In this document: in pieces, positions 1 to 45,019 of the stretch
How positions within the stretch are numbered: position 1 is the stretch's first letter
Layout of the letters: each line of letters begins with the position of its first letter
Source: Escherichia phage vB_EcoS-22664B1
Length of the DNA stretch: 45,019 bases
Reading direction: 5' to 3' (one strand)
Sequence record: MZ234008.1
Notes under the pieces: model-generated
Databases searched by the model: none
What the model was told of the DNA's origin: nothing
What the model saw: only the letters and a program-made list of their open reading frames with translations
Position numbers and translations under genes: made by a program

Positions 1-74
1 ATGGTGAGTGAAAAATGCAGTTTGCAGTTACAGCAGATAGGGATCGGCTTTTTCATACGCATGATTAATATTGG

Positions 75-103
75 TTGCATTCAGCCTAGCACCCTGCTAG
101 ATT
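75..103 (+). promoter_or_regulatory. putative sigma70-like promoter for left-end genes (-35 TTGCAT, 17-nt spacer, -10 TAGATT) flanked by two TTGGTTGCA copies
   Basis: Motif copies at 71-79 and 102-110; hexamers read directly. Confidence 0.35.
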
Positions 104-131
104 GGTTGCACACCAACATGAGGACTGAACA

Positions 132-437
132 ATGAGAGCATTAATCTGGAAATACTCACGGGCAATAGCGAAGCTGGACGAAGCGAAAAACACAAACGGC
201 AACGTAGACTATGCGCGCCAGTTTGCGGCACGGGCACACCAACACATCATGAGTGCGCTCGACGATATGGACGCCAGCATGGATGACCTGGGTCCGCTGC
301 GTAAGGCTATCCATGAATACGCGCTGGCATTCTCCCGTGAGCGCCTGGCCTATCGCTTCGGTATTGGCGATAAGGCAGTGACAAACGTCGCCCGGATTAA
401 AGCACAGCGCGAACTATTCGCCCAGCTTGCGAAATAA
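132..437 (+). CDS. hypothetical protein (101 aa)
   Basis: Intact ORF with GAGGA RBS-like sequence upstream of ATG; downstream of putative promoter at 75-103. No recognisable motif. Confidence 0.55.
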   Translation: MRALIWKYSRAIAKLDEAKNTNGNVDYARQFAARAHQHIMSALDDMDASMDDLGPLRKAIHEYALAFSRERLAYRFGIGDKAVTNVARIKAQRELFAQLAK

Positions 438-446
438 GGGGCCAAA

Positions 447-716
447 ATGGGCCGTAGACGAGCTAATCAGCTTTCTTGGCATATTCCCCTGCATTGCATA
501 CGAATATGGGCTAAGAACGCGATTGAGGGCGATTCCGTGTACTGGTGCTATCGCGACGATGTGAAGCCACTTACGCAGACTCGCTACTTGCACCAGTTCG
601 CAGCACAACATGGATTCTATGTGCGGACTTCCTTGCAACCAATGGGAATACGTATTACATTACGCCGGAAGCCCGCCGTTGAGCGGGTAGGCAAACACTG
701 GAGACTGCGCAAATGA
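447..716 (+). CDS. hypothetical protein, paralog family member 1 (C-terminal ERVGKHWRLRK)
   Basis: ORF with AAGGGG RBS-like sequence; C-terminus resembles C-terminus of next gene (YTRVGRNATWRLRK); stop overlaps next start (ATGA). Confidence 0.45.
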   Translation: MGRRRANQLSWHIPLHCIRIWAKNAIEGDSVYWCYRDDVKPLTQTRYLHQFAAQHGFYVRTSLQPMGIRITLRRKPAVERVGKHWRLRK

Positions 717-1057
717 TTCGAGTAACCGCACGCCACGAACAATCGGGGGCCACTTACGATGTAATCGACGTTCGCGGCGCGTTCGTCATCTTCGGACGGG
801 GTGACGACCGGCTGGCGCTGCCGATCGGTATGCTGAGCACATACGACTATTTCAAGCATAACGTCCGGTGTGGCGATGTGCTGCGCGATAAGCGCACCGG
901 TGAGCTATGGACGGTGGCGAGTATTTGGGTGAAAGATAAACGGCAGCACACGTTATTGCTCGCCCGCCCGGATTGCAAACAGCAAACTATTAACACTATT
1001 GGCCTGGTGGACTACACCCGCGTAGGCCGTAACGCTACCTGGAGACTGAGAAAATGA
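713..1057 (+). CDS. hypothetical protein, paralog family member 2
   Basis: Shares GDVLRD-R-G-LW-V and RVGR motifs with 1054..1578; ATGA overlap with both neighbours. Confidence 0.55.
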   Translation: MIRVTARHEQSGATYDVIDVRGAFVIFGRGDDRLALPIGMLSTYDYFKHNVRCGDVLRDKRTGELWTVASIWVKDKRQHTLLLARPDCKQQTINTIGLVDYTRVGRNATWRLRK

Positions 1058-1578
1058 AATTACTATTCCGCCGTAAATCAGATGGCTATATCCTGAAGCC
1101 GATCCAGACCTTATCGAACTGGGTACGCCTCCACCACGTTGCAAGCGATAAAGTCTGGTGGGCGACTAAGGCAAAGCTGCCGGAGTACTACGAAATCCTC
1201 ACACACGATATCGAGCGCGGCGATGTGCTGCGGGATATTCGCGACGGGCAATTGTGGGTCGTGGAATACGTGGGTCGGCACGGCCTGCGTATGAAGTCCT
1301 GCAAGGATGTCGTAGCGGGCAACATGGTCACGGGCATGACGTACTTCGGGCTAATCCACTACGAACGAGTGGGCCGCAAATCCCAGCCAGCGTATGCGAC
1401 CTACGACGCCCGCCAGGTGCAGGCCAGACTTAACAAGGCCACGCATGAGATAATTAATCACGTTGATGCCGTGACGAATGCGCAGCGCATGGCCCGCGAA
1501 TACGGCGTAGGATTCATCCGTGTCGAGCAAGACGGCAGCATGTCCGCTATAGACCCGCGCTCGGTAATACTGAAATGA
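1054..1578 (+). CDS. hypothetical protein, paralog family member 3
   Basis: Contains GDVLRDIRDGQLWVV and HYERVGRK segments paralogous to 713..1057. Confidence 0.55.
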   Translation: MKLLFRRKSDGYILKPIQTLSNWVRLHHVASDKVWWATKAKLPEYYEILTHDIERGDVLRDIRDGQLWVVEYVGRHGLRMKSCKDVVAGNMVTGMTYFGLIHYERVGRKSQPAYATYDARQVQARLNKATHEIINHVDAVTNAQRMAREYGVGFIRVEQDGSMSAIDPRSVILK

Positions 1579-1718
1579 GCGCGACTATCCGTGATATGCT
1601 TATGCATAACCGCTTTGAGATAGGCGGGCGAGTATTCTGCAATTACTTCGTGGCGCGTGCTTGGGCGCGCCATATCGGAAAACCAGTAGGGGCAATACGA
1701 TGCTACACGATTTGATAT
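1575..1718 (+). CDS. small hypothetical ORF (47 aa)
   Basis: ATG overlapping stop of preceding gene; short, overlaps next gene start; weak support. Confidence 0.25.
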
Positions 1719-1987: not shown

Positions 1988-2004
1988 ATATGCAAGCGTG
2001 ATAT

Positions 2005-2039
2005 AGTCCCAGTGAGCTAAAACTTACTGGGACTTTTTT
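2005..2039 (+). terminator. rho-independent terminator (agtcccagt...actgggact + T-run)
   Basis: 9-bp inverted repeat followed by TTTTTT directly read from sequence. Confidence 0.6.
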
Positions 2040-3047: not shown

Positions 3048-3063
3048 TAAGAGGAAACACAGT

Positions 3064-3231: not shown

Positions 3232-3236
3232 ACACG

Positions 3237-3262
3237 AAGCCCGGTTAATTCCGGGCTTTTTA
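3237..3262 (+). terminator. rho-independent terminator (aagcccgg ttaatt ccgggctt ttttt)
   Basis: Perfect stem-loop plus T-run. Confidence 0.65.
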
Positions 3263-3265: not shown

Positions 3266-3295
3266 CTTGACTTGCAACCAACATAAGGGCCATAC
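3266..3295 (+). promoter_or_regulatory. putative sigma70-like promoter (-35 TTGACT, 18-nt spacer containing TGCAACCAA, -10 CATACT)
   Basis: Hexamer matches read from sequence; spacer carries the recurrent GCAACCAA motif, with a second copy just downstream. Confidence 0.35.
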
Positions 3296-3327
3296 TGCAA
3301 CCAATCAACGAGAAGGAGTAATACACT

Positions 3328-3470: not shown

Positions 3471-4668
3471 ATGCACCCGCAAACTAAAATTACCGACGAG
3501 CAATTGATCGCTGAATTGCAATCTGGCACTACCTCGAAAGATATTGCGAAGAAATACGGCATTGCCCTTCGAAATGTCTATATGCGCAAAGCCCGCCTGT
3601 CGAAGAAAGGCATTGGTCACGGTAACGATGCCGTAATCCGTAAGCGCGTTGCCGATGGCTTCGGCGTTAAGCGTGTATCAGCCCTGGTGCGCGGCAATGG
3701 CGAAGAGGTCATGTCCTGGGTCATCACCGAGCAAGACAAGGAGCGCCAGCTTGAAGCAATGCGCGCCGTTGTCGAGGGCATGAATAGCGAAATCACACCG
3801 GCAGCACCAGTGAGCGCTCCGCCAGTCCCGATCCAGGCGCTTGACCTGCTTAACCTGTATACCGTGTCGGACTTCCACCTGGGAATGTTGGCGTGGGGCG
3901 AGGAGACTGGCGAGGACTGGGATATGGCAATCGCTGAAGACCTGTTCTACCGCTGGTTTGTCGAAGCCTTCGCCCGCGCACCGGACGCTGGAAGACCTGT
4001 TCTACCGCTGGTTTGTCGAAGCCTTCGCCCGCGCACCGGACGCTGGCACTGCCGTAATCAATATTCTCGGTGATATGGCGCATTTTGACAGCCTCGACGC
4101 CGTCACGCCAGCCAGTGGTCACGTACTGGACGCAGATACCCGCTACCAGAAACTGGTCCGCTACATGATTCGCATGGTGCGCAACGTGGTTGAACTGGCG
4201 CTGCAAAAACACCATAAGGTCAAACTGTTAATCGTCCAGGGTAATCATGATGAGTCCGGTATGATTTGGCTGGCTGAGATGTTCAATACCCTGTACGAGA
4301 ACGAGCCGCGCGTTGATGTGGACACGTCCCCGGACGTTTACAAAATGGTGCAGCACGGTAAAACAACGCTGTTCTTCCACCACGGACACAAAGCACGCTT
4401 TGACGCCATCGAACCGGTCATGATTTCTAAATTCAGACAGGCTTTCGGGTCCAGTGAGTACAGCTACGCGCACGTGGGCCACTTGCACCACCAGAAGATT
4501 GTTGAATCCCGCAACATGATTGTTGAACAGCACCGGACCCTTGCCGCGAAAGACGCATATGCGAGCCGCGGCGGTTGGATGTCTGGTCGTAGTGCTAACG
4601 TCATCACCTATAGCGCCAACTACGGCGAAGTAGCGCGCTTAACCATTAGCCCGGAAATGTTGAAATGA
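3471..4668 (+). pseudogene. HTH domain + calcineurin-like metallophosphoesterase gene, split by a 55-bp tandem duplication (frameshift)
   Basis: N-terminal HTH-like segment; metallophosphoesterase motifs SDFHLG, GDMAHFD, GNHDE, HHGH, GHLHH. ORFs 3471..4073 and 3841..4668 are the same gene in two frames; removing one 55-bp copy (3936-3990 or 3991-4045) restores one ORF of about 380 aa. Confidence 0.6.
3936..4045. repeat. perfect tandem duplication, 2 x 55 bp
   Basis: Unit gaagacctgttctaccgctggtttgtcgaagccttcgcccgcgcaccggacgctg occurs twice in tandem; cgctg microhomology at the junction. Confidence 0.9.
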
Positions 4669-9997: not shown

Positions 9998-10762
9998 TTA
10001 GCGCGGAATACCGCAAATCTCGTTTAACGTCTTCACGTCCAGCGCTACTGCCGTTGACTTCGGCTTGTCCGGGTATGGAATGAACTGTTCAACTTCAGGC
10101 CACGCCGCGATCAGCTTCTTGTCAGTATTGTGCATATCCAGCACGCCGGTAACAGTTAGTTTGAACGCGTCATACTTCGCACGCAATTCACGGCGGGCCT
10201 TGTCGTTGCGGTCCAGGCGCTTGCAGAAATCATGATCTGCCGGGTAGTCTACGCGACCGCGCGGGAGATATATCGGCAGCGCGGCCCCGTTCTCGTCCAC
10301 TTCACACACTGACGCGAGCATAACTTCCTCGTACCCCGGTACTATATCGCTGAGATCCGGCGCGAGCGTATTCATATATTTCTCTTCCCAGTATCCGCGG
10401 TGCTGGCGGTAGCGGTATCCGTCGCCGCTCATATGCAGGGTACGGATGTTACCGCCTGCGTTGATTTCGAAAGTGGAGCAGTAAACGCGTCCAATGCCTT
10501 TCGTCCGGTCCTTGTTATAGCTGTACGACGCTTTCTCGGTGTAAACGCTGACGCCGTACATCTGCGACTGGTTATCGCGGATTTCTGCGATATATGCGCG
10601 TAGCTCGGCGAACGTGTGAATGCCTTTTGGCATACAGTGCAACGTAATGTCATACGCCAGGTCGCGAGAGTCCATCATGATTTTTTTGGCTTCAGTCGCG
10701 ATTTCGTGGTCGCGCAGGATGTTAGCCAGAATCTGGTTTTTAATGTCTTTTGTCAGTCTCAT
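9998..10762 (-). CDS. hypothetical protein (254 aa), opposite-strand gene island in structural module
   Basis: Intact ORF; start MRLTKD with GAGGA RBS-like sequence; own putative promoter at 10792-10821; no motif recognised. Confidence 0.6.
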   Translation of the reverse strand: MRLTKDIKNQILANILRDHEIATEAKKIMMDSRDLAYDITLHCMPKGIHTFAELRAYIAEIRDNQSQMYGVSVYTEKASYSYNKDRTKGIGRVYCSTFEINAGGNIRTLHMSGDGYRYRQHRGYWEEKYMNTLAPDLSDIVPGYEEVMLASVCEVDENGAALPIYLPRGRVDYPADHDFCKRLDRNDKARRELRAKYDAFKLTVTGVLDMHNTDKKLIAAWPEVEQFIPYPDKPKSTAVALDVKTLNEICGIPR

Positions 10763-10791
10763 TTGTGTGTCCTCATTGTTGGTGTGCAACC

Positions 10792-10821
10792 AATATAGTG
10801 CAACCAATACCTGGATTGCAA
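10792..10821 (-). promoter_or_regulatory. putative sigma70-like promoter (-35 TTGCAA, 18-nt spacer with TTGGTTGCA, -10 TATATT) for 9998..10762
   Basis: Read on - strand; same architecture as promoter at 30187-30216 (shared block tatagtgcaaccaa ... ttgcaag ... aattttgc). Confidence 0.4.
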
Positions 10822-10911
10822 GCGAATTTTGCGATTATTTTTATCGCTGATAATATTAGAGGCGTGAAGTCGAGCGGGTGGCCCGCTCTGCCACAATCCC
10901 AGGGGGATAGC

Positions 10912-15632: not shown

Positions 15633-15662
15633 TTTGGTCGCTTAAATAGCGAGTGTTAATAT

Positions 15663-15686
15663 GGGGCCAGCACGGCCCCTTTTTTA
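15663..15686 (+). terminator. rho-independent terminator (ggggcc agcac ggcccc + T-run)
   Basis: Member of a near-identical terminator family (also at 9973, 25641, 28981). Confidence 0.65.
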
Positions 15687-16378: not shown

Positions 16379-16720
16379 TGAAGCGGGACAAAACGGGACG
16401 TCCCGCTTTGTCCCGTTTTGTCCCGCCACCTGCAAAACTGCATACCTACTCACTTTCATTGCATAAACTCAAAGCGGGACGAGCGGGACGTCCCGATCCG
16501 TCCCGCCCCCTAAATGTGCATACCTATTCAGATTTCGTGCATAAAACAAACGGGACAGAAAGCGGGACAAACATGGGGCGGGACAAAGCGGGACAGCACC
16601 CCGTCCCCGTCAGTGCTGCCGCGGGTTTCAGCCGATCGGGACAAGCGGGACAAACCCCAGTCTTTCAGACTAGACGGGGGTCAATGGCCCCCCTCGTCTG
16701 AGACTGAATAAGGTTTGTTT
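16378..16720. repeat. non-coding repeat region A: GGGAC palindromes, GCGGGACA iterons, TGCATA(A) repeats and conserved GC hairpin
   Basis: GCGGGACA at 16383, 16562, 16578, 16588, 16645; palindrome centred on GGGACGTCCC near 16397; about 165 bp (16548-16710) is about 85% identical to 44770-44937. Confidence 0.85.
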
Positions 16721-19420: not shown

Positions 19421-19427
19421 TAAAATG

Positions 19428-19456
19428 GCCCTCACATACAACGTGGGGGCTTTTTT
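19428..19456 (+). terminator. rho-independent terminator / attenuator
   Basis: gccctcac / gtgggggc stem followed by TTTTTT; T-run abuts the ATG of the next gene. Confidence 0.45.
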
Positions 19457-20843: not shown

Positions 20844-21584
20844 ATGTTAACGAAGAAGGTTAAGAGCGATATCGCCGCGCACGTTGCGGCATGTCTGCCA
20901 GAAGAAGCCTGCGGCCTGGTCGTCATGGTGGGCCGCAAACAAGTATTTATCCCGTGCCTGAACGTATTCGAAGACCCGACCGGCGCGCGATCGCGTAAGG
21001 ACGCGTTTACAATTAGTGATATGGCATGGATGGACGCCGAGGATATTGGCGACGTCGTGCGCGTAGTCCACTCACATCCAGGTCAGCGGGAGTTAACCCC
21101 ATCATTGGGCGACGTTAACGGATGCAACGGCAGCGGCATAGTGTGGACCATTACCAACGAGTACGGCGACTTTATCGAGATCGACCCTGAAGACCCACCA
21201 CTGGTAGGTCGCCGATTTGTTCTCGGAATTACGGATTGCTATGGCCTCGTCATGGACTGGCACAAAAAGCAGGGCGTGAATCTGCCTGACTTCCGCGTGC
21301 CGTACAACTGGTGGGAGATGGGCGAAAGCCTGTACATGGATAACTGGTATGATGCGGGATTCAGGGAGTGCGCGGAGAATACGCCGGGGGCAATGGTCAT
21401 CATGCAGATTAGCGCACCAGTGCCAAACCATGCTGGGATCTTCCTTCCGGGCAACCAACTACTACACCATATCTACGGCAGCCTGTCGAGCGTGGTCCCC
21501 TTCCGGGCAGGATTTTTCCGCGACAATGTGGTTAAATGGGTACGTCATAAAGACTTACCTAGGGAAATCACAGAATGGCAATGA
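20844..21584 (+). CDS. tail assembly protein, lambda K-like (JAB/MPN + NlpC/P60-type)
   Basis: JAMM-like motif VVHSHPGQRELTPSLGD (HxH...S..D); position between L-like and I-like genes. Confidence 0.65.
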   Translation: MLTKKVKSDIAAHVAACLPEEACGLVVMVGRKQVFIPCLNVFEDPTGARSRKDAFTISDMAWMDAEDIGDVVRVVHSHPGQRELTPSLGDVNGCNGSGIVWTITNEYGDFIEIDPEDPPLVGRRFVLGITDCYGLVMDWHKKQGVNLPDFRVPYNWWEMGESLYMDNWYDAGFRECAENTPGAMVIMQISAPVPNHAGIFLPGNQLLHHIYGSLSSVVPFRAGFFRDNVVKWVRHKDLPREITEWQ

Positions 21585-25665: not shown

Positions 25666-26637
25666 ATAGATATTAGGAATGACGAGTAACGGGGTGGGTA
25701 CGGCAATATTTTTGCCCGGCATTTGGAATTGCTGCCGTGAGTAGTTGCCAATGACGCGGTTTTTGGCGATGCGCACATTATTACCCGCCATTCGTATCCC
25801 GTTCATGCGCACATGGTTATAGCCGCTGTTGTTCTCAATGAGCGCACCGGTATATGAAAGCTGGATCAGACTATTACCGATGTGCTGGTCGCCGCCACCG
25901 ATATTAATCGTGCGGTCGTAGACAAACGGCTTGTTTACCGTCGAGAACGTGACCTGCCCCTGGTTGTTAGTCATGGTGATACCGGTCCCCGGTGAGGGCG
26001 GCGTATTGTTGAATATCACCAGGTCCATATCAACGGCAGCGCCTACGTCGTCAATCCCGCCATAGGACGCATTACGGACAATGATACTTCCGCCATCGAA
26101 GCCAACCGATACGTTGCCGTCGTCCCAGCGCGCGAACGGGACACCGCCGACGGGAAGCGGCATACTTCCGTTTACATGCACGCGCTGCGCATATCGGCAG
26201 GTCATTAGCCGTGCGACGTTGGATATTGCGGTGAAGTCCGTTGAGTTAGCTACCAGTAAGCCCGCATTGCGTGACCCCACCGGCAGCACTTCCATAATCA
26301 CCCCGCCCCATGTTGGAAGCCCGCTGTATGCGTTATAGGCATCCTCACCGCGCAAGGTGATTCCGCCATCCCCGTTACGTTGTATCGACGTCACATAAAA
26401 CGGGTCTGGCAAGACCAGGGTCTGGTCGAATACTTCCATCACTTCTACCGGATTAGTTAGGGCAACGACCAGTTCGGACCCCGGTGTCAGCGGTGTGTTA
26501 ATGGTCAGCGTCTTGTCAGACTGACAGCGCTGATTAAAGGTAGTGCAGAACGACGGAGCGCGAAGGCCCGCGGTTATCTCCATGACAGGTCTACCGTCGT
26601 TGTAGTCGATAAGTATTCCAGCACCCATTATTACCAC
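25663..26637 (-). CDS. hypothetical protein (324 aa), possible tail/receptor-binding-associated protein
   Basis: Intact - strand ORF between J-like gene and tail fibre; Gly/Asn/Thr-rich, beta-rich composition; function unknown. Confidence 0.5.
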   Translation of the reverse strand: MVIMGAGILIDYNDGRPVMEITAGLRAPSFCTTFNQRCQSDKTLTINTPLTPGSELVVALTNPVEVMEVFDQTLVLPDPFYVTSIQRNGDGGITLRGEDAYNAYSGLPTWGGVIMEVLPVGSRNAGLLVANSTDFTAISNVARLMTCRYAQRVHVNGSMPLPVGGVPFARWDDGNVSVGFDGGSIIVRNASYGGIDDVGAAVDMDLVIFNNTPPSPGTGITMTNNQGQVTFSTVNKPFVYDRTINIGGGDQHIGNSLIQLSYTGALIENNSGYNHVRMNGIRMAGNNVRIAKNRVIGNYSRQQFQMPGKNIAVPTPLLVIPNIY

Positions 26638-26852
26638 TCCCGTGATTTAACTGATACAGTACCTGAGAAATTGCCGTCGCTATCGGCAGATAGGCCAGTG
26701 AAGCGCATGTCCACGTCTCCGGCAGGGACTTTTTGCCCGTCAACATAACGCAACATGCAGCTTCCGTAAGCCACCGTAATGCAATCACCGTTGTTGCGTT
26801 CTACGGCACAACCGGACAAAAGAACAGCACAAATCATAATTAAAGTTTTCAT
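26631..26852 (-). CDS. small lipoprotein (73 aa; possible superinfection-exclusion lipoprotein)
   Basis: Start MKTLIMICAVLLSGC with lipobox LSGC and AGGAG RBS-like sequence; first gene of the two-gene - strand cassette. Confidence 0.6.
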   Translation of the reverse strand: MKTLIMICAVLLSGCAVERNNGDCITVAYGSCMLRYVDGQKVPAGDVDMRFTGLSADSDGNFSGTVSVKSREW

Positions 26853-26932
26853 GTTATCATCTCCTATATTTGGTTGAGTTTTAGTATTACACCGCTCGAT
26901 CAAGAATGCAACCAATTTATGAGGATTCAGCT

Positions 26933-29619: not shown

Positions 29620-30142
29620 TTATTTAAGTGCGCTAGTCACCAGTGTTTTTTCCATGTTGCGGAAGTCTTCCGGCGTCATGAGAATTTTGGACCCATCCTC
29701 GCCAGTGAGCACGACCATAGGCTGGACTTCTTGATCTACCACACCGAAATTGGCGGCGTTAACCATCTTGCCAGCAGATGACGAAGGATGCCACGCACCG
29801 GCAATGTCAAGGGGCCAACCCTTGAGGCTGTCGAATTGCGCTGCCGTTGTATCGATCTGAATCTCATCATGCACGGTCATGTGCGACTCACCCAGTAGTG
29901 CGGCATACGCAACCAGGTCAACAATATTGTCTTCCTGGTGCTTACGGTGCTGGCGCACCAGCTTCAGGCAGATCAGGAAGGTCCAGGCTTCTTGCTCTGT
30001 AAGGTCGCGACCGGTAAGCGCGTTAAACACGGCAGCGATTTGCTTCGCGCTGCGTTCTTCTTTCGCGTTATCATAGCCGTTCTCTTTCCCGCGCTGTTCC
30101 ATAGTGGTGGCGGCGTTCTTGCAGTATTCAAATGCTTTCATG
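29620..30142 (-). CDS. hypothetical protein (174 aa)
   Basis: Start MKAFEY with AAAAGGAAAA upstream; preceded by putative promoter 30187-30216. Confidence 0.5.
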
Positions 30143-30186
30143 ATGTTTTCCTTTTTAGTGGGGGCCGGATTGCCCCCGACGAGATA

Positions 30187-30216
30187 ACTATAGTGCAACC
30201 AACCTATTGGTTGCAA
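30187..30216 (-). promoter_or_regulatory. putative sigma70-like promoter (-35 TTGCAA, 18-nt spacer, -10 TATAGT) overlapping palindrome TGCAACCAA-ccta-TTGGTTGCA
   Basis: Read on - strand; perfect 9-bp inverted repeat at 30194-30216 inside the spacer region. Confidence 0.4.
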
Positions 30217-32055: not shown

Positions 32056-32073
32056 CGTAATGTCTCCAGGTAT

Positions 32074-32101
32074 TAAAAAGGGCGTCCAACCGGACACCCT
32101 T
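32074..32101 (-). terminator. putative - strand terminator/attenuator hairpin (gggtgtcc ggtt ggacgccc + U-run)
   Basis: Hairpin followed by T-run when read on - strand; lies between genes 32136..32459 and 31813..32055. Confidence 0.35.
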
Positions 32102-32135
32102 AAGATAATGCAACCAATCTAATTACGCAACCAAT

Positions 32136-35051: not shown

Positions 35052-35330
35052 CTACGCGACCAATTCAGCAACCAATAAATCGCAGTCGGCTATGTTGTCA
35101 ATAACGCGAACGTCAGCACCGCGGCGGGCCATTCGCTCATGTTCTCGCACCTGGTGCGGCTTCGGTTTTCCTCCGGGGCGCTTCACTTCGACGAATACTA
35201 TGATGCCGTTGATGATAATAATCAGGTCGGGCGCACCTGCGCGCCCCTCCCATGCCAGCTTGCGGCAGAATCCGCCAACCTCTTTCACCCGTCGCATCAG
35301 GTGACTTTGAATCTTGCCTTCTGGTGTCAT
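35052..35330 (-). CDS. VRR-NUC domain nuclease
   Basis: Motif GAPDLIIIINGIIVFVEVKRPGGKPKPHQ matches the VRR-NUC signature (PDL ... E.K ... Q). Confidence 0.6.
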   Translation of the reverse strand: MTPEGKIQSHLMRRVKEVGGFCRKLAWEGRAGAPDLIIIINGIIVFVEVKRPGGKPKPHQVREHERMARRGADVRVIDNIADCDLLVAELVA

Positions 35331-35522: not shown

Positions 35523-37814
35523 TTACTTCCTATACCGATACATGATGTCGCCTTCGGCGGCAAGTGGGAAACCTTTCGCCCATATAGGCAGGTCACACAT
35601 CAGCGCGCAAAGCTCCTCGGTCGTGTAATCGTCGGTGTCCGGCACTTCGGTGATCAATTCATCGTGCACTGACAGGACGATTTCATAGCCCGCAGCTTCA
35701 ACACCAGGCATGGACCATGCGAGAATATCGCGGCACAACGCCTGTACGATGTTCTCCGTAAGTTTGCCGCCGTAGGTGTACTGGAATCCCCACTGGCGCG
35801 TCGTCTGATTCTCGCCCTGGTATTTGATGCGGGTACTGGTGCGCTTCTTGCCGGTGTCTTCGTCAATCTCGGTAGTGACAGACAGCGCGATTCCGGGGTA
35901 GCTCATGATTCGCCCTGACGGCAACTCAACCTTCAGCCACCAGCCCGCGGCGTTCGGGTCGTCGCGTTCCTCGTCAAAGGTGGGGTCGTGCTTCGCCTTC
36001 GTGCGCACAATCTTGAGCGCTTTCTTGCCATCCGGGCGAACGTTCGCGCCAGCCCAGTATGCCTTACCTGGATTGCGTATCGCACATAACACCGCCTCCT
36101 CAAGCTCGGCCCAAAAGGCTACGGTCTTCGGGTGAGATTCACGCCACATACGTTTGATCGCGTCGCAGGTCAACCACACGTTTTTAGGCAGTATGTAAGT
36201 CGGGCGCTCGTCTTTCTTGCCGGGCTTCGGCGGGCGCTTCGCTTCGTTGATGCGGGCAAACTCATAACCGCGTTTAGCCGCCGCCCAAATATGATCGGGG
36301 AATGTTCCCTTCATGACGTCAGCCATTGCGTACAGGTCGAGGCCCAGGTTTTTAGCAAACTGCAAGAACGCCGCGACGCCGCCACCATAGCCCAGTCCCA
36401 ATTCACACGCCTTACCAATCTGGCGTAGGTCTTTGCGGTTGGCTTTGATGTAGTCCGGGTCAAGGCCAAACATCTTACCGGCAGTTTCACAATAGATATC
36501 GCGTCCGGCCTTAAACACCATAAGCGCGGTTTTCTCGCCAGCGATCCAGGCAAGGCCACGCCCTTCCACGTTGGAGTAGTCCGCTACAACAAACTTCTTG
36601 CCCTTAGCCGGGATAATGCACCCGCGAACGGTCGAGGCGGTTAGCTTCGATATGTCATACGCCCAGTGCGCGGTCCCGCGTAACAGGGAGTTGATGCCGT
36701 TGGTGAGCATGTGCGACCGTACCCAAAACGAGACGTCGCTCTCACCTTCGCGGCGCTTAATCTTCCCTTCGTGGTCATCACTGTACTCGCCACGTGCCAG
36801 GTTTTGAGGCTGAAAGCCTTTACCGGCCCAGCGTAGTGTGCGCTTTGCCCCACCATACTGAAGACAACCACGGCGGCGACCATCGGCAGAAAGACCATTG
36901 ACGAGCGGATTGTATTTAGTCGATGCCGTTGATGACGCGCCGAGGCGCATTTCAATAAGCACTTTGCCCTCGTCGGGGAAGTCTGGATCTTCCAGCAAAT
37001 CATTCAGCGTGGATTTCTGCGCGTTGTGAATGGTGAACGCCGGGGCAATATCACGCAGGATTGGCAGGAAGTCATTACCGGTCAGTTTACCGCCGAACAG
37101 TTCCCAGGCTTCTTCCTTCAATTCTTCTTTGTGCACCTGCACCGCCTTGATCGCGGCGTTCGCCAGGTCAACGTCCACATAGAAGCCACGGTCGTTAATC
37201 AACTGGTCGATACGCAGGATTTCATCTTCCTTCGGTGAGTTGCCCCAGTCCGGTATTCGCCAGTAGACTTCACGCATTGCGATAATATCCAGCGCGGCAT
37301 AGCGCAGGAATTTAGCCCATTCTTCAGGGTGAGTCTCGCGCGTGTAGCGGCGGATTTTGTAGGTCTTAGGGGTCGGCTTACAAAATCGCTTAATCAGCGC
37401 CTTGCCTGCCTTATCCTTCGCGTGCTCTGCGTCAACGCCCAGCACCTGGCATTGCATATCGAGGCCACCCGGCAGCGCGTGACGAAAGGCCATAATCATC
37501 GTATCTTCGATCTGGCTTACCGGCAGGTCGATGCCCCACTTTTCACGGATAACCAGGCGGTCAAACAGGAGGCCGTTAGCCATCACTATTTTTGCTTTCT
37601 TGCGGGTTACCTGGCGTAGCGCCTTGCGCAGTTCACGCGGCATCGTGGGGGATTCAGTGGCGTCCCATGTCTGCACGCGGCCCTCGTCGATGGCGTAGGT
37701 GCAAATCATAATCTCGGTGGATGGGTGTTCTGCATAGGCATACGCACCTGCTTTCTTCAGGTCCACCCCGCTATATGTCTCGGTGTCAAGAAACAGGCGT
37801 TCGAAGTCTTTCAT
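35523..37814 (-). CDS. DNA polymerase, family A (Pol I-like) with 3'-5' exonuclease domain
   Basis: Exo motif FLDTETYS; polymerase motif A VVADYSNVEGR, motif B K...LGLGYGGG, motif C LSVHDEL; 763 aa. Confidence 0.9.
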   Translation of the reverse strand: MKDFERLFLDTETYSGVDLKKAGAYAYAEHPSTEIMICTYAIDEGRVQTWDATESPTMPRELRKALRQVTRKKAKIVMANGLLFDRLVIREKWGIDLPVSQIEDTMIMAFRHALPGGLDMQCQVLGVDAEHAKDKAGKALIKRFCKPTPKTYKIRRYTRETHPEEWAKFLRYAALDIIAMREVYWRIPDWGNSPKEDEILRIDQLINDRGFYVDVDLANAAIKAVQVHKEELKEEAWELFGGKLTGNDFLPILRDIAPAFTIHNAQKSTLNDLLEDPDFPDEGKVLIEMRLGASSTASTKYNPLVNGLSADGRRRGCLQYGGAKRTLRWAGKGFQPQNLARGEYSDDHEGKIKRREGESDVSFWVRSHMLTNGINSLLRGTAHWAYDISKLTASTVRGCIIPAKGKKFVVADYSNVEGRGLAWIAGEKTALMVFKAGRDIYCETAGKMFGLDPDYIKANRKDLRQIGKACELGLGYGGGVAAFLQFAKNLGLDLYAMADVMKGTFPDHIWAAAKRGYEFARINEAKRPPKPGKKDERPTYILPKNVWLTCDAIKRMWRESHPKTVAFWAELEEAVLCAIRNPGKAYWAGANVRPDGKKALKIVRTKAKHDPTFDEERDDPNAAGWWLKVELPSGRIMSYPGIALSVTTEIDEDTGKKRTSTRIKYQGENQTTRQWGFQYTYGGKLTENIVQALCRDILAWSMPGVEAAGYEIVLSVHDELITEVPDTDDYTTEELCALMCDLPIWAKGFPLAAEGDIMYRYRK

Positions 37815-37981
37815 TGCTTTATCCTCACTACTGCGTCAGCGCTGCCGATCATGGAGAAGATACCATCCGACAAGGCAATCTCTTCGCCGTTGTTGCGAAT
37901 CTCGGCAACGGTAAAATACTCGCCCAGCAATTTGGACCATACACGCATTCCGACTTTTACTTCACTGGCTTTAATACGCAT
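37811..37981 (-). CDS. small hypothetical protein (56 aa), translationally coupled to DNA polymerase
   Basis: ATG with AGGA upstream; its TGA overlaps the polymerase ATG (ATGA). Not in ORF track (<60 aa). Confidence 0.35.
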   Translation of the reverse strand: MRIKASEVKVGMRVWSKLLGEYFTVAEIRNNGEEIALSDGIFSMIGSADAVVRIKQ

Positions 37982-38773: not shown

Positions 38774-38836
38774 TTTCATTTCCTCATTTCGCATGTATCG
38801 GGGTTATTGTGAGCCACCCCGTTCGGCTTGGTTGCT

Positions 38837-38865
38837 AATTTACTTGGTTGCGCCTAAGCGGTCAA
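38837..38865 (-). promoter_or_regulatory. putative sigma70-like promoter (-35 TTGACC, 17-nt spacer with GCAACCAAG, -10 TAAATT) upstream of SSB-like gene
   Basis: Read on - strand; a second GCAACCAAG copy lies just downstream of the -10. Confidence 0.4.
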
Positions 38866-41663: not shown

Positions 41664-41859
41664 TGTATATCTCCGATTGGTTAAGTTTAGGTGTCGGCAG
41701 TCAACTTCGTCGGTGGCCTTAACATAGTGCCAGGTTACGCGTTCTCCCTTTCGGGTAGTGGACCTGGTTATATAATCACGGTTGGGAATCCTGACACTTC
41801 GATCCGGCCCCTGCGTTGCCCCTCTCCAGTTTGCGTCCTGCATCCTGTCGACGGAGTGA

Positions 41860-41910
41860 ATAATAGATTGGTTGCAGGTGGGGTGTCAACAACTAATTTC
41901 AAAAAAAAAA
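41860..41910 (-). promoter_or_regulatory. putative strong early promoter for leftward operon (-10 TATTAT, 18-nt spacer with TGCAACCAA, -35 TTGACA, upstream A/T tract as UP-like element)
   Basis: On - strand: T10 tract (plus 41901-41910), TTGACA (41889-41884), spacer, TATTAT (41865-41860). Confidence 0.5.
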
Positions 41911-42006
41911 GCGCCGAGGCAAAATGCGACGGCGCTAACCAATAAGAGACAATGAGACGTGATTATTATTACACGCGTGCGCGCCCGTTTCAATATACAA
42001 AAGGAG

Positions 42007-42035
42007 TTGACACCCTGCAATTTTAGGTGTAGTTT
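42007..42035 (+). promoter_or_regulatory. putative sigma70-like promoter (-35 TTGACA, 17-nt spacer, -10 TAGTTT) for HTH regulator and primase-helicase
   Basis: Consensus -35 with 17-nt spacing, divergent from the leftward promoter. Confidence 0.5.
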
Positions 42036-42066
42036 CGTTGGTCATTAACCAATAGGAGACAGAACA

Positions 42067-42396
42067 ATGCATATCAACGACGCAATCGAAATGTTAACTA
42101 AGACCGTTAGTTGTGAGACAAGCCGGTCCTGGGCTTATACCGATGCCGTTGGTGCGGCGTTATTTGAAATCGAACGCCTGCGCAGTGTCGAAAAAGAATT
42201 GCGCGCCAAGCTGGAATTACTCAACGGTACGGCAGCAAGCAAGCTGCAAAAACACAATGAAGAAATGGAAGAATACAAAAAGCAGGTTATCCGTTTACGC
42301 GACGAGGGCAAGTCCTGGGCGATGATTGCCGAGTTGACCGGAATTAATCAGAGCACCGTGCGCTCCTGGGTACGCAATAATAAAACTTCTAAGTAA
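42067..42396 (+). CDS. HTH DNA-binding protein (putative transcriptional regulator)
   Basis: C-terminal helix-turn-helix-like segment SWAMIAELTGINQSTVRSWVRN; coiled-coil-like middle; AGGAGA RBS-like sequence. Confidence 0.55.
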   Translation: MHINDAIEMLTKTVSCETSRSWAYTDAVGAALFEIERLRSVEKELRAKLELLNGTAASKLQKHNEEMEEYKKQVIRLRDEGKSWAMIAELTGINQSTVRSWVRNNKTSK

Positions 42397-42406
42397 GGCA
42401 ACGGCA

Positions 42407-44671
42407 ATGAGCTTAATTAAATTCGCAGTAACAAGACCCGCTAAAAAAGGCGAAAAAGCCAGGGCGGAAAACTTCGAGATGACCACTGATGAGTTTTTCG
42501 AATTTATCAATGATGCGAAAGAAATCTCCTCGGTGCACATCAACAAGACTGAAGATAAAGCCGAGTATGCGCGCCGCAAGCGTAAGGCCGATGGCATCGT
42601 GGCCTATACCAATGATGGGTTACGCCGCAAGACCAGTGCGGTCGACCGCTCGATCCTGTTCTTCGATATTGACCGCACCGACACCCGCACATTACGCCGC
42701 TGCCGTAAAGCGTTCACCGACGCTGGTCTGGAGCATGTATTCCACACCACGACCGGCGACCGTCACCCACTGAAAGGCGGCACACGTTGCGCCCGTTTCC
42801 TGGTGCTCACTGACAAGCCTGTACCGGCTGAAGACCTGGGCCGCGTCCAGTATGCGCTATTAGACCAACTGGGCCTGTCAGATGTGGACTTCGACGATTG
42901 TACGAAAGACACCAACCGCCTTATGTACCTGCCTCACCAGCAGTCTGTCATAAAGTGCCACTATGGAAAGCGCGCCCGTGTCCGTCGTCTGCTTCGCCTG
43001 GCTGACAAGCTGGGAGTGGAGAAAGAGGAAGTGCGCCGCGAACTGACCCAGGGCGCCGATGGCGTGGCGGACGGCATTCTGGATTGGTGCTTCCAGGCTG
43101 GCTTTGAACCACTGTCATCCGGTCGCGGTTATGAAGTGCCTTGCCCGAACGAGCACCTGCATAGCGGCGGCGGGTCGACGGCTATCATGGTTAAGGATGG
43201 CGAGATCCGTTTCAAGTGTATGCACACCGGCAACGAATGCTGTTCCGAACTGAATAAACACCAGCACCTGGCGTTACGTCTGATTGGTATCCCGGACCAC
43301 TTGAACGTCGAGCCACACAACATGTCACGCAAGCAAATCGCCGCCATCCTTCCGGGACTGGACGACGAGGAAGTGGAATCGTGCTATGAACATATTGTTG
43401 ATGCGGTCGGAGACGGCGACGAGTACGGCGAATGCACCGACGCTGACCTGGACAACGAGCCGGTCGCTCTGTTCAGTAAGCACGACCCGATTATCGAAGG
43501 CCTGGTCAACTTCAAATCTACCTGGTATATGGCGGGTGAGTCGAACATTGGTAAGTCGTTCTACGTGCTGGGCCAGATGGGCGCTGTTGCCGCGGGGATT
43601 CCGTTCGGTGGCGCGAAGGTCGTCCAGTCGCATTGCTTCTATTTCGATGCGGAAGGTGGCGAAGCCTCCAACCAGCGTAAGGAAGCATTGCAGATTAAAT
43701 ACGAGCACGACCTCGACAAGCTGCACATTATCGACCTGCAATCACGCGGCTGGGATATTACCAGCAAGTCAGGCTTGCGCGAGGTTATCAGCTTTATCAA
43801 CCGCACCGCTAACGGGGAGCCGGTTGGCCTGGTGGCCTTCGACTCACTCAACCAGACTGTAGCGCTGCGGTCCGCTGATGCCAAACCGTTCGACGAGAAC
43901 AACGCAAGCGATATGGGTGAAGTGGTCAAAGCGCTGAAGTCCATTGCGGAAAATACAGGCGGCAGTGCGGGCGTCATCCATCACCCGGCTAAGGGTGCAA
44001 ACGGCAGCAGATCCCCACGCGGGTCCGGCGCGCTTCATGGTGCTGTCGATTCTGCGTTCTTCCTGGAACAGCCGGACGATAATCAGCCAGGCCAACTCAA
44101 CCTGTATCACGAAAAATCCCGTAACGGCATCAAGCAAGCGCCGCGTGGCTTCGTCCTGCTCAAGTGCAAGGTTAAGGTGGATCTCCGCAAGTCTGATGCG
44201 TTCGAAGCCCACCAATCCACCAGCACCGGGCCAGACTTCGGTGATGTGGTTGCCGGTTGGGACGTCAAGCCAATTGCATCTACACCACGCGACGAGACTC
44301 TTTACCTCGTACCGGTCGCCCTGGCACCGTTCGCTATCGAACAGGCTAAGGCAGCAGGCAAGGCAGCAGTTAAGGAAGAGAACACCGCCGGACCGCGCAA
44401 CGAGAAAGAGAAGGTGCTTTATGCGGCACTGGAAAAACTGATGGAAGATAACCCGGACCATACTGGATTCAGTAAATCGGCAATTGTCCGCCAGGCTGGA
44501 CTTGCGAAAGGTGGCACATCGACGAAGGCAATTGACGATATGGTGGAGCGCGGCGTGCTCGGGTTTTATACAGATCCACACACCGGGGCCATCTATGGGT
44601 CGTCGAATCTGGTCATCAAATCGGATATACCCATCACGCTTTCAGCGACCGATGATGACTTAAAAGATTAA
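42407..44671 (+). CDS. DNA primase/helicase (N-terminal primase-like domain, C-terminal RecA/DnaB-like ATPase)
   Basis: N-terminal acidic motif LFFDIDRTD; C-terminal Walker A GESNIGKS and Walker B-like LVAFDSLN, plus HHPAKG; 754 aa. Confidence 0.75.
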   Translation: MSLIKFAVTRPAKKGEKARAENFEMTTDEFFEFINDAKEISSVHINKTEDKAEYARRKRKADGIVAYTNDGLRRKTSAVDRSILFFDIDRTDTRTLRRCRKAFTDAGLEHVFHTTTGDRHPLKGGTRCARFLVLTDKPVPAEDLGRVQYALLDQLGLSDVDFDDCTKDTNRLMYLPHQQSVIKCHYGKRARVRRLLRLADKLGVEKEEVRRELTQGADGVADGILDWCFQAGFEPLSSGRGYEVPCPNEHLHSGGGSTAIMVKDGEIRFKCMHTGNECCSELNKHQHLALRLIGIPDHLNVEPHNMSRKQIAAILPGLDDEEVESCYEHIVDAVGDGDEYGECTDADLDNEPVALFSKHDPIIEGLVNFKSTWYMAGESNIGKSFYVLGQMGAVAAGIPFGGAKVVQSHCFYFDAEGGEASNQRKEALQIKYEHDLDKLHIIDLQSRGWDITSKSGLREVISFINRTANGEPVGLVAFDSLNQTVALRSADAKPFDENNASDMGEVVKALKSIAENTGGSAGVIHHPAKGANGSRSPRGSGALHGAVDSAFFLEQPDDNQPGQLNLYHEKSRNGIKQAPRGFVLLKCKVKVDLRKSDAFEAHQSTSTGPDFGDVVAGWDVKPIASTPRDETLYLVPVALAPFAIEQAKAAGKAAVKEENTAGPRNEKEKVLYAALEKLMEDNPDHTGFSKSAIVRQAGLAKGGTSTKAIDDMVERGVLGFYTDPHTGAIYGSSNLVIKSDIPITLSATDDDLKD

Positions 44672-44759
44672 ATTTTGCGCGCATTGGTTGCCATTTTGAG
44701 TGTTTTTAGCTGGTCGCATTGGTTGCCGTGTAGTGTAAATATAGTGAATAGTTATGCAG

Positions 44760-44940
44760 TTTTATTGCATAAAGTAAGCGGGACAAAAAGCGGGACAGAC
44801 AGGGGGCGGGACAAGGCGGGACAGCACCCCCGTCCCGCCCCGGATTACGCGGCTTGCGGGGGAGCGGGACAGGCGGGACAAACCCCAGTCTTTCAGACTA
44901 GACGGGGGTCAGTTGGCCCCCTCGTCTGAGACTGCATAAA
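44760..44940. repeat. non-coding repeat region B: GCGGGACA iterons, inverted GGGAC and conserved GC hairpin (homologous to 16548-16710)
   Basis: GCGGGACA at 44778, 44789, 44806, 44816, 44864, 44873; the 3' 60 nt is nearly identical to region A. Confidence 0.85.
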
Positions 44941-45019
44941 ATCCGGGATTGCATAATACACGGCAACATGATGTGAATTGCGGTCGTTGATGAACTAGGC
45001 AACCAATGCGAGTTGTATT

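What the first reader, a model, noticed from the sequence alone, without database searches (positions are those of the whole stretch)
71..45006. Genome-wide intergenic motif GCAACCAA / TTGGTTGC, usually paired and embedded in promoter-like hexamers
At least 20 copies of an 8-9 nt motif occur in non-coding regions only as far as I could see: 71-79, 102-110, 3273-3281, 3296-3304, 10785-10793, 10799-10807, 26907-26915, 30194-30202, 30208-30216 (perfect inverted pair), 32109-32117, 32126-32134, 35059-35066, 38829-38836, 38846-38853, 41868-41876, 44685-44693, 44719-44727, 44999-45006. A random 8-mer is expected once or twice in 45 kb. Copies sit in the spacer or beside the -10 of sigma70-like promoters in both orientations. 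Two promoters (10792-10821 and 30187-30216) share a longer block tatagtgcaaccaa...ttgcaag..aattttgc. This looks like an operator or promoter-specificity element for a phage or host DNA-binding protein.
Basis: seen in the sequence. Interest (0 to 1): 0.75.

Follow-up and report, generated by a model that had tools for sequence, protein, structure and literature searches.

The report
Promoter-embedded 8-mer operator of Dhillonvirus
A strictly conserved 8-base word (TTGGTTGC) is built into almost every classical promoter of this E. coli phage. It is most likely the docking site of a small phage-encoded DNA-binding protein that sets the timing of early gene expression, which is a familiar kind of control that has not been described for this phage group.

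Summary
GCAACCAA/TTGGTTGC occurs 20 times against 1.9 expected. Sixteen copies lie in the 5% of the genome that is non-coding, two lie in the last codons of a gene next to the following promoter, and two lie deep in genes, which is the chance level. The window is a complete Dhillonvirus genome, Escherichia phage vB_EcoS-101114B2. The 8-mer is kept at 17-22 copies in seven other Dhillonviruses and at 12-13 copies per 20 kb in three relatives of about 72% identity. It changes five times less often than the surrounding intergenic DNA. It occupies discrete registers of nine sigma70-type promoters: over the -35, abutting the -10, or across the -10/+1. These promoters serve replication, host-interaction and small unknown genes. 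Lysis and structural genes are instead preceded by conserved, motif-free extended -10 promoters. Paired copies are direct repeats with variable spacing, not palindromes. The best candidate reader is a 109-aa coiled-coil plus HTH protein (42067..42396). It is the only gene present in all motif-bearing genomes and absent from motif-free Kagunavirus relatives. Binding and the sign of control are untested. I favour an early-promoter operator, probably repressive. This is a new member of a known kind and of moderate interest.

The parts
71..78 (+). TTGGTTGC copy over the -35 of promoter R1 (+). The -35 is TTGCAT 75-80, then a 17-nt spacer, then -10 TAGATT 98-103. R1 drives gene 132..437 and the following small genes.
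102..109 (+). TTGGTTGC copy overlapping the 3' end of the R1 -10 and the start site (TAGATTGGTTGC).
3274..3281 (+). GCAACCAA copy just after the -35 of promoter R2 (+). The -35 is TTGACT 3267-3272, then 18 nt, then CATACT 3291-3296. R2 follows terminator 3236-3259.
3297..3304 (+). GCAACCAA copy starting directly after the R2 -10 (positions -6 to +2).
10786..10793 (-). TTGGTTGC on the - strand, overlapping the -10 and start of promoter R3 (-). R3 is TTGCAA 10821-10816, 18 nt, TATATT 10797-10792, and drives the Nmad5 gene 9998..10762.
10800..10807 (-). TTGGTTGC on the - strand, in the R3 spacer and abutting the -10 (TTGGTTGCacTATATT).
26908..26915 (-). TTGGTTGC on the - strand, over the -35 of promoter R6 (-). 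R6 is TTGCAT 26911-26906, 16 nt, TAATAC 26889-26884, and drives lipoprotein gene 26631..26852. A one-mismatch inverted copy (TTGGTTGA) lies at 26870-26877.
30195..30214 (-). Inverted pair in promoter R7 (-). TTGCAACCAA supplies the -35 TTGCAA 30216-30211. TTGGTTGCac abuts the -10 TATAGT 30192-30187. R7 drives 29620..30141.
32110..32134 (-). Direct pair, 17 nt apart, in promoter R8 (-). The distal copy gives the -35 TTGCGT 32130-32125. The proximal copy abuts the -10 TATCTT 32107-32102.
35056..35075 (-). Promoter R9 (-), inside the last codons of gene 35052..35330. The exact copy 35068-35075 gives the -35 TTGCTG 35071-35066. A conserved one-mismatch copy (TTGGTCGC) lies at 35056-35063. The -10 is TATAGT 35048-35043.
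38828..38851 (-). Direct pair, 16 nt apart and read as GCAACCAA in the direction of transcription, in promoter R10 (-). R10 is TTGACC 38865-38860, 17 nt, TAAATT 38842-38837. One copy ends 1 nt before the -10 and the other starts 1 nt after it. R10 drives the ssDNA-binding protein and DNA polymerase genes.
41868..41875 (-). GCAACCAA (as read on the - strand) in the spacer of the near-consensus promoter R11 (-). R11 is TTGACA 41889-41884, 18 nt, TATTAT 41865-41860, and is the first promoter of the leftward replication arm.
44684..45006 (.). Three copies of the subclass CGCA-TTGGTTGC-C at 44684, 44719 and 44999. They lie downstream of the primase-helicase gene and flank the GCGGGACA iteron block ('region B' in the SO-1 record). 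None sits in a standard promoter register.
42067..42396 (+). Candidate reader: a 109-aa protein with a long helix (residues 22-79) and a C-terminal HTH (84-108). Its own promoter, TTGACA 42007-42012 / 17 nt / TAGTTT 42030-42035, has no exact copy. A two-mismatch copy (TTAACCAA, 42045-42052) lies in its leader. The same position holds an exact copy in relatives L049 and L051.
635..642 (+). Copy deep inside gene 447..716. Together with 21451-21458 it accounts for the chance expectation, and it is probably not functional.
21451..21458 (+). Copy deep inside the tail assembly gene 20844..21584. It is conserved with the gene in other genomes and is probably not regulatory.

Best explanation
TTGGTTGC is a cis-regulatory protein-binding site (operator half-site) built into the core of the phage's sigma70-type, -35-dependent promoters. 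These promoters serve the replication/recombination arm, the small early genes, the Nmad5 gene and the superinfection-exclusion lipoprotein gene. The most likely reader is the phage's own 109-aa coiled-coil plus HTH protein (42067..42396). Its gene sits in the divergent control region just upstream of the primase-helicase gene, at the position where related Kagunavirus phages carry a Cro-like gene. The protein would recognise each asymmetric 8-mer with one HTH. Because the sites cover the -35, the spacer next to the -10, or the -10/+1 region, occupancy would compete with RNA polymerase and shut these promoters down as the protein accumulates. Lysis and structural genes would escape, because they are preceded by motif-free extended -10 promoters that do not depend on -35 recognition. 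Shown here: the enrichment, the registers, the selection on the 8-mer, the two promoter classes and the co-occurrence with the HTH gene. Inferred: that the hexamers are real promoters, that this protein binds, and that the effect is negative.
For: Enrichment and location. The motif is sharp and its 8 columns differ in 2.0% of comparisons against 10.6% for other intergenic columns. It occupies discrete registers: -10-like hexamers peak at offsets +27, +10 and -4 on the same strand and directly adjacent on the opposite strand, and a -35-like TTGCnn lies at offset +4 in 73 of 168 distinct contexts. Five of the promoters were found independently by the scan, and all nine have 16-18-nt spacers. Copy number and positions are conserved in seven Dhillonviruses and in the ~72%-identical relatives L049, L051 and L053. 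Conserved extended -10 promoters without the motif lie in front of the holin, gp58-like, terminase, scaffold and tape-measure genes. The HTH protein passes the Pfam gathering scores for HTH_23, HTH_28 and Sigma70_r4_2, and the model shows a long helix plus an HTH. Its residues 47-106 are nearly invariant across 21 homologues. It is restricted to Dhillonvirus among 50,697 phage records. It is the only window gene present in every motif-bearing genome and absent from the motif-free Kagunavirus genomes L009 and L010. The other HTH candidate, the 380-aa gp58-like protein, is present in motif-free Kagunavirus and absent from motif-rich loci L049 and L051. L051 has no GCGGGACA iterons yet keeps both the HTH and the 8-mer, so the HTH tracks this motif and not the iterons. 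Kagunavirus has a Cro-type regulator at the syntenic position.
Against: There is no binding, footprint or transcript data. In L053 the HTH protein is only 44% identical and its recognition helix changes from STVRSWVRN to STIKNWIYR, yet the motif is unchanged. There is therefore no covariation to tie protein to site, and an unchanging host reader would explain that invariance equally well. The phyletic test effectively compares one clade with one outgroup, and three of the motif-bearing genomes are 20-kb partial loci. In five promoters the motif sits in one fixed register and orientation and supplies a weak -35 (TTGCnn). That pattern is more typical of an activator box than of a repressor operator. 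Direct repeats with 9-35-nt spacing are unusual for a dimeric coiled-coil HTH. The three region-B copies are not in a promoter register.
Confidence: 0.5

Rival explanations
1. The site is an activator box (positive control). The 8-mer at -39..-32 replaces a poor -35, and the bound phage protein recruits or re-targets sigma70 RNA polymerase, as the T4 MotA box and the lambda CII site TTGC-N6-TTGC do. Copies over the -10/+1 or in strong TTGACn promoters would act negatively, giving a dual-function regulator like phi29 p4.
For: The distal copy sits exactly 27 nt (once 26) upstream of the -10 start, in one orientation, in R1, R6, R8 and R9 and in the L008 variants of R6 and R7. Promoters of this type match the consensus poorly (6-9 of 12), whereas promoters with the inverted orientation have TTGACn (9-11 of 12). 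The HTH gene has its own strong promoter with no exact copy, as expected for an immediate-early activator. The HTH scores as Sigma70 region 4-like.
Against: The motif also occurs inverted, inside spacers and across the -10/+1, where an activator is not expected. R11 is nearly consensus (11 of 12) and should not need help. No homologue of MotA, AsiA, CII or Mor was detected. TTGC can serve as a partial -35, so the fixed register may only reflect compact overlap of two signals.
Confidence: 0.25
2. The reader is a host protein, such as an E. coli transcription factor or nucleoid protein, which the phage uses to couple its early promoters to host physiology.
For: The 8-mer is invariant across phages whose candidate regulator has diverged to 44% identity. 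A reader that cannot co-evolve with the phage would explain this. From memory only: ATTGGT resembles the PdhR half-site and GTTGCATT resembles the CytR octamer, and CytR tolerates direct or inverted repeats with variable spacing.
Against: Kagunavirus phages that infect the same hosts and share the replication genes have 0-1 copies. The conserved core (TTGGTTGC) matches neither remembered host motif. The positions CytR would need (ATT after GC) vary, and PdhR needs a dyad that is absent. No host motif database could be searched.
Confidence: 0.1
3. The sites are replication-origin iterons. The 8-mer would primarily be the binding site of the replication initiator (the HTH protein or the primase-helicase) at an origin in region B, and the promoter copies would be secondary autoregulatory sites.
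For: A distinct subclass, CGCA-TTGGTTGC-C, occurs only just downstream of the primase-helicase gene, at 3-7 copies in every genome. In Teewinot it is amplified as 53-nt tandem units, next to the GCGGGACA iterons. The gene order HTH, primase-helicase, repeats resembles an initiator-helicase-origin module.
Against: Three quarters of the copies are dispersed over nine promoters in precise registers with the promoter hexamers, which origin iterons do not explain. No origin has been mapped.
Confidence: 0.1
4. There is no dedicated reader. The 8-mer would simply be shared ancestry among duplicated promoter cassettes, or part of what sigma70 itself reads.
For: Several promoters share longer blocks (R3/R7; R1/R3 share TTGGTTGCACACCAACA). 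TTGC and TT do overlap the -35 and -10 hexamers.
Against: The flanks and the spacers between copies have diverged freely while the 8-mer stays invariant in 11 genomes. The word occurs in both orientations and in spacer positions that sigma70 does not read. Promoters have been rebuilt with new copies in L008.
Confidence: 0.05

Closest known systems
Lambdoid Cro/CI operators (OR/OL) and the Cro-like regulators of Kagunavirus
   Same: A small phage HTH protein is encoded in a divergent early control region. Its binding sites overlap the -35, spacer and -10 of the early promoters. Kagunavirus relatives carry a Cro-type gene at the syntenic position.
   Different: Those operators are 17-bp dyads clustered at two loci, and they diversify together with their repressors. 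Here an asymmetric 8-mer is dispersed over about ten loci, mostly as direct repeats with variable spacing. The protein matches HTH_23/sigma-r4-like models better than the Cro/CI HTH_3 model, where the hit is weak and below threshold. The phage is virulent.
T4 MotA box and the lambda CII site (TTGC-N6-TTGC)
   Same: A short phage-specific word replaces or overlaps the -35 of a temporal promoter class at a fixed distance from the -10. CII sites also contain TTGC direct repeats (from established knowledge).
   Different: The motif also occurs inverted, in the spacer and across the -10/+1. No MotA, AsiA or CII homologue was detected.
Bacillus phage phi29 protein p4
   Same: One small phage protein binds several promoters and gives opposite outcomes depending on where the site lies. 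This creates the early-to-late switch (from established knowledge).
   Different: p4 sites are inverted repeats upstream of the promoters and work together with p6. There is no sequence or fold relationship here.
E. coli CytR octamer repeats (GTTGCATT)
   Same: Octamer half-sites are tolerated in direct or inverted orientation with variable spacing. Three phage copies read TTGGTTGCATT.
   Different: The bases conserved here are TTGG plus TTGC, not the ATT that CytR needs. CytR requires flanking CRP sites. The comparison rests on memory and was not tested.

Membership tests
Repressor operator overlapping a sigma70 promoter | The site overlaps the -35, spacer, -10 or +1 of a promoter | tested here: met
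   Registers at -39..-32, -22..-15, -8..-1 and -6..+2 relative to -10 hexamers. The promoters themselves are predicted, not mapped.
Repressor operator overlapping a sigma70 promoter | Dyad-symmetric operator bound by a dimeric HTH | tested here: not met
   The 8-mer is asymmetric. Across 10 genomes, 59 of 67 pairs within 60 nt are direct repeats, with spacing from 9 to 54 nt. All seven pairs at the one inverted locus (R7) are 12 nt apart.
Repressor operator overlapping a sigma70 promoter | A specific protein binds the site and lowers transcription | not testable with these tools
   Needs EMSA or footprinting and in vitro or in vivo transcription.
Repressor operator overlapping a sigma70 promoter | The regulator gene is linked to, and controlled by, its own sites | tested here: inconclusive
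   The HTH gene lies in the divergent control region next to R11. Its leader carries an exact copy in L049 and L051 but only a two-mismatch copy in the window.
Activator box replacing the -35 (MotA box / CII site type) | Fixed position and single orientation relative to the -10 | tested here: inconclusive
   This holds for the distal copy of R1, R6, R8 and R9 (27 or 26 nt) but not for the other registers or for the inverted copies.
Activator box replacing the -35 (MotA box / CII site type) | A homologue of the known activators (MotA/AsiA, CII, Mor/C) is present | tested here: not met
   About 45 window proteins scanned against Pfam, and 30 of them against PHROGs, gave no such hit.
Promoters of a phage-encoded RNA polymerase or sigma factor | The phage encodes its own RNA polymerase or sigma factor, and the conserved element has one position and one orientation | tested here: not met
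   No RNA polymerase or full sigma factor appears in the annotation or the scans. The motif occurs in both orientations and in four registers.
Replication-origin iterons | Copies clustered in one or two arrays rather than at promoters | tested here: not met
   Copies lie at ten separate loci. Only the CGCA-TTGGTTGC-C subclass clusters, in region B.
Sigma54 promoter (GG-N10-GC) | GG and GC elements 10 nt apart | tested here: not met
   This would need two copies 8 nt apart. The observed spacings are 9, 12-17, 23, 31-32, 35, 37, 42, 47 and 53-54 nt.
Restriction/modification target or oriented genome-wide word (Chi/KOPS-like) | Spread through coding DNA, strand-skewed or avoided | tested here: not met
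   Sixteen of 20 copies lie in the 5.3% of non-coding DNA. The co-occurring Dcm-like methyltransferase is absent from EP23, which keeps 17 copies.

The most novel reading that the evidence does not exclude
The 109-aa protein is not a plain repressor but a sigma70 region-4-like adaptor. It would let host RNA polymerase read TTGGTTGC in place of a -35 element, defining a phage-specific promoter class by a minimal form of sigma appropriation. The same protein, bound to the CGCA-TTGGTTGC-C subclass beside the iterons, would mark the replication origin. One 8-mer would then couple the early transcription programme to the start of replication.
Probability: 0.1. Interest if true: 0.75.

Novelty: new member of a known kind. 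Interest (0 to 1): 0.45.

Why it matters
Dhillonviruses are among the commonest E. coli siphophages. More than 150 genomes exist, and members are used in the BASEL collection and in many anti-phage defence studies. Their gene regulation is nonetheless undescribed in the literature I could search. This motif gives a first regulatory map: nine predicted early or middle promoters marked by the 8-mer, six predicted late promoters of the extended -10 type, and one candidate regulator. It also corrects several dubious annotated CDSs that lie over the control regions. It yields simple experiments and engineering handles, namely operator-bearing promoters and a cognate small protein. Conceptually it is an ordinary kind of phage control. 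Three features are unusual: the exactness of the 8-mer, its asymmetric direct-repeat use, and its occurrence in four registers.

Tried and rejected
1. Literature. Searches for Dhillonvirus, HK578, SO-1, EP23 and SSL-2009a combined with promoter, motif or transcription, and for the motif as text, found no description. The text search for the 8-mer returned only primer sequences.
2. gp58-like protein. It is present at 70-74% identity in motif-free Kagunavirus and absent from the motif-rich loci L049 and L051.
3. Dcm-like methyltransferase and gp53-like protein. Both share the phyletic pattern at first sight. The methyltransferase is missing from EP23 and truncated in Teewinot, and the gp53-like gene is reduced to a 22-aa match in Teewinot. 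Both phages keep the motif.
4. GCGGGACA iterons as the HTH target. L051 has none of them but keeps the invariant HTH and the 8-mer.
5. Covariation test with the most distant homologue, P0025/L053. The protein has diverged but the motif is unchanged, so the test is uninformative.
6. IMG/VR scan for TTGGTTGC-N9-TTGGTTGC. Apart from Dhillonvirus contigs it found only unrelated phages with their own TTGGTTGC-containing tandem arrays (L022, L035), judged coincidental.
7. Fold and sequence searches of the HTH model against the PDB. Only generic 35-residue HTH matches appeared (LuxR/GerE, IstA, resolvase, sigma), none significant.
8. Rfam. No hit in the window.
9. RNA-level function. Rejected because copies occur in both orientations and upstream of the predicted starts.
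10. Sigma54, CytR and PdhR. Considered and set aside (spacing check; the rest from memory).

Full report
IDENTITY OF THE WINDOW. The 45,019-nt window is a complete Dhillonvirus genome (HK578/SO-1-like virulent E. coli siphophage). It is identical to Escherichia phage vB_EcoS-101114B2 (MZ234014.1) rotated by 30 nt. The one difference is a perfect 55-nt tandem duplication at 3936-4045. I transferred the record's 70 CDS to window coordinates. I set aside four small CDS as dubious (61..135, 10743..10850, 41935..42072 and the TTG-started 44675..44929), because they lie over conserved control sequences. With the first, second and fourth excluded, 2378 nt (5.3%) of the genome is non-coding.

THE OBSERVATION. 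GCAACCAA/TTGGTTGC occurs 20 times, against 1.87 +/- 1.43 in shuffles with a maximum of 6.
- Sixteen copies lie in non-coding DNA (binomial P = 1.4e-17).
- Two copies (30207, 35068) lie in the final codons of a gene, immediately upstream of the next gene.
- Two copies (635, 21451) lie deep in genes, which is what chance predicts.

The one exception is that the copy listed near 35059 is a one-mismatch variant, and the exact copy is at 35068. One-mismatch variants are not enriched in non-coding DNA (2 of 34), so the word is unusually sharp. Its extended consensus is A-TTGGTTGC-A. Under an order-3 Markov background it is the second most over-represented 8-mer of the genome (z = 14).

ANATOMY. Nine of the ten loci are sigma70-like promoters with 16-18-nt spacers. 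Five were picked up independently by the consensus scan, and all hexamers were verified. There are two architectures.

Type II reads TTGGTTGC in the direction of transcription. The word can occupy three registers:
- -39..-32, where its TTGC forms the -35 hexamer TTGCnn, 27 nt (once 26) upstream of the -10 start. This applies to R1 at 71, R6 at 26908, R8 at 32127 and R9 at 35068.
- -22..-15, abutting the -10 as TTGGTTGCayTAT. This applies to R3 at 10800, R7 at 30195 and R8 at 32110.
- -8..-1, where its TT forms the end of the -10 as TAnATTGGTTGC. This applies to R1 at 102 and R3 at 10786.

Type I reads GCAACCAA in the direction of transcription and has a canonical TTGACn -35. The word lies in the spacer (R2 at 3274, R10 at 38844, R11 at 41868) and/or starts 0-1 nt after the -10 (R2 at 3297, R10 at 38828).

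A blind scan over 168 distinct contexts from nine genomes recovers exactly these registers. It shows peaks of -10-like hexamers at offsets +27, +10 and -4 and directly adjacent on the opposite strand. Paired copies are direct repeats in six of seven window loci, and in 59 of 67 pairs within 60 nt across ten genomes. Their spacings are 9, 13, 14, 16, 17, 23, 31, 32, 35, 37, 47, 53 and 54 nt, with no helical phasing. That fits independent recognition of each 8-mer rather than a symmetric dimer site.

CONSERVATION. Seven other Dhillonviruses carry 17-22 copies at syntenic positions: bob, EP23, SO-1, Teewinot, CHD5UKE2, BF9 and LM40P1. In alignments of the control regions the 8-mers are invariant while the DNA between and around them varies. 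Motif columns differ in 2.0% of comparisons, against 10.6% for other intergenic columns. 104 of 120 motif columns are invariant against 593 of 872 other columns (Fisher P = 1e-5). The most divergent genus member (L008) has rebuilt two promoters with new copies in the same registers. Three metagenomic relatives with about 72% nucleotide identity (L049, L051, L053) keep 12-13 copies per 20 kb in the same promoter geometry. Kagunavirus phages share the replication genes and the hosts but have 0-1 copies.

TWO PROMOTER CLASSES. Motif-free intergenic regions hold either terminators or conserved extended -10 elements (TGnTAnnnT). Ten of 37 such elements fall in the non-coding 5%. Six of them lie on the + strand before late functions:
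- 1999, holin
- 3428, gp58-like gene
- 4916, small terminase
- 10848, scaffold
- 15654
- 16730, tape measure

Their cores are conserved in up to eight genomes. The 8-mer therefore marks the -35-dependent promoters of the replication/recombination arm, the small genes after region B, the Nmad5 gene and the lipoprotein gene. Lysis and morphogenesis genes use promoters that do not depend on -35 recognition. This is an inference from sequence. No start sites have been mapped.

WHO READS IT. Pfam and PHROGs scans of about 45 proteins found only two HTH candidates.

(a) A 109-aa protein at 42067..42396. It passes the gathering scores for HTH_23 (4.5e-7), HTH_28 and Sigma70_r4_2. The AlphaFold model (pLDDT 87) shows a 58-residue helix followed by an HTH. 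Fold matches are generic HTH domains only. Residues 47-106 are almost invariant across 21 homologues, while the N-terminus is hypervariable.

(b) A 380-aa protein with a weak N-terminal GerE-like HTH and a metallophosphoesterase domain. It is broken in this window by the 55-nt duplication.

Phyletic tests separate the two. Protein (b) is present at 70-74% identity in motif-free Kagunavirus and absent from the motif-rich loci L049 and L051. Protein (a) is confined to Dhillonvirus among 50,697 phage records. Of all window genes, it is the only one present in every motif-bearing genome and absent from both outgroups. The two other genes with that pattern, a Dcm-like methyltransferase and gp53, are missing or truncated in EP23 and Teewinot, which keep the motif.

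L051 lacks the second repeat family (GCGGGACA) but keeps both the HTH and the 8-mer, so the HTH tracks this motif. Kagunavirus has a Cro-type gene at the syntenic position.

One caveat applies. The most distant homologue (L053, 44% identity, recognition helix STIKNWIYR instead of STVRSWVRN) goes with an unchanged motif. There is no covariation, so an invariant host reader cannot be excluded. A regulon of about 18 sites in a virulent phage, with no pressure for heteroimmunity, would also freeze both partners.

MECHANISM. I favour an operator model. The HTH gene has a strong promoter without an exact copy (TTGACA-17-TAGTTT, 42007-42035). Its product accumulates and occupies 8-mers that overlap the -35, spacer or -10/+1 of the early promoters. 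This shuts them down while the extended -10 late promoters continue. The main rival is positive or dual control. The fixed register and orientation of the distal copy, and the weak TTGCnn -35 of type II promoters, look like an activator box. The inverted copies in strong TTGACn promoters look like repression sites. Sequence alone cannot decide between the two.

A subclass, CGCA-TTGGTTGC-C, occurs only downstream of the primase-helicase gene beside the GCGGGACA iterons. It is present in every genome and amplified as 53-nt repeats in Teewinot. These copies are not in a promoter register and may serve replication.

NOVELTY. I found no description of this motif or of Dhillonvirus transcription control in the searchable literature, and there is no Rfam hit. 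The phenomenon, a phage regulator with sites in its promoters, is well known. The specific word, its asymmetric use in four registers and the candidate protein family are new. I rate it a new member of a known kind, with interest 0.45.

Noticed in passing
window 41903-41993 (- strand): Candidate small RNA. A conserved promoter (TTGAAA-17-(TG)AATAAT, 41993..41965) is followed by a transcript of about 55 nt. The transcript ends in a GC hairpin plus U10 terminator (dG -17, z -3.1). Its single-stranded 5' part, CAUUGUCUCUUAUUGGUU, is complementary over 15 bp to the ribosome-binding site of the HTH gene (42048-42062). The block is invariant in 7 genomes and has no Rfam match. GenBank places a dubious 45-aa CDS here.
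   Followed up: partly
window 44770-44885 and 16380-16711: A second repeat family, GCGGGACA(A/G): 12 copies on the + strand and 2 on the - strand, 12 of them in two paralogous blocks of 82.7% identity. These correspond to 'region A' and 'region B' of the SO-1 record. The annotated CDS 44675..44929 and 16514..16711 lie over them. They may be origin or packaging iterons. They are absent from relative L051.
   Followed up: partly
window-wide, e.g. 940, 1532, 2586, 30029, 41575: The octamers ACGGCAGC and ACGGCAAC occur 31 and 24 times, against about 3.5 expected. They are dispersed through coding DNA. ACGGCAGC is biased to the + strand (23:8) regardless of gene orientation. They are also over-represented in the Kagunavirus outgroups.
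   Followed up: no
window 3936-4045: A perfect 55-nt tandem duplication, absent from MZ234014.1. It frameshifts the 380-aa HTH/metallophosphoesterase gene (3471..4668). It is either a natural variant or an assembly artefact.
   Followed up: partly
window 1999-2034, 15654-15679, 19418-19451: Extended -10-like elements (TGATATAGT, TGTTAATAT, TGATAAAAT) sit directly against terminator hairpins. A transcript started there would begin inside the 5' arm of the hairpin and escape termination. This looks like a terminate-and-restart module. At 19418 the TGA is also the stop codon of the tape-measure gene.
   Followed up: partly
window 30150-30185 and 32070-32100 (- strand): Promoters R7 and R8 are followed at once by conserved GC-rich hairpins. 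The one after R8 has a T-run like a terminator. They may be 5' stabilising stem-loops or attenuators.
   Followed up: no
L005 (Teewinot) 37702-37949: Six copies of CG(C/T)A-TTGGTTGC-C: five spaced 53 nt apart as tandem repeats, and a sixth 35 nt further on. The array lies downstream of the primase-helicase gene and is an expansion of the region-B subclass.
   Followed up: no
L022 1865-4422; L035 6129-6340: Unrelated IMG/VR phage contigs (a 299-kb one at 36% GC and a 41-kb one at 58% GC) carry their own dense arrays of TTGGTTGCAATTTC or TTGGTTGCCCTT. They have no similarity to the window, so this is probably coincidence.
   Followed up: no
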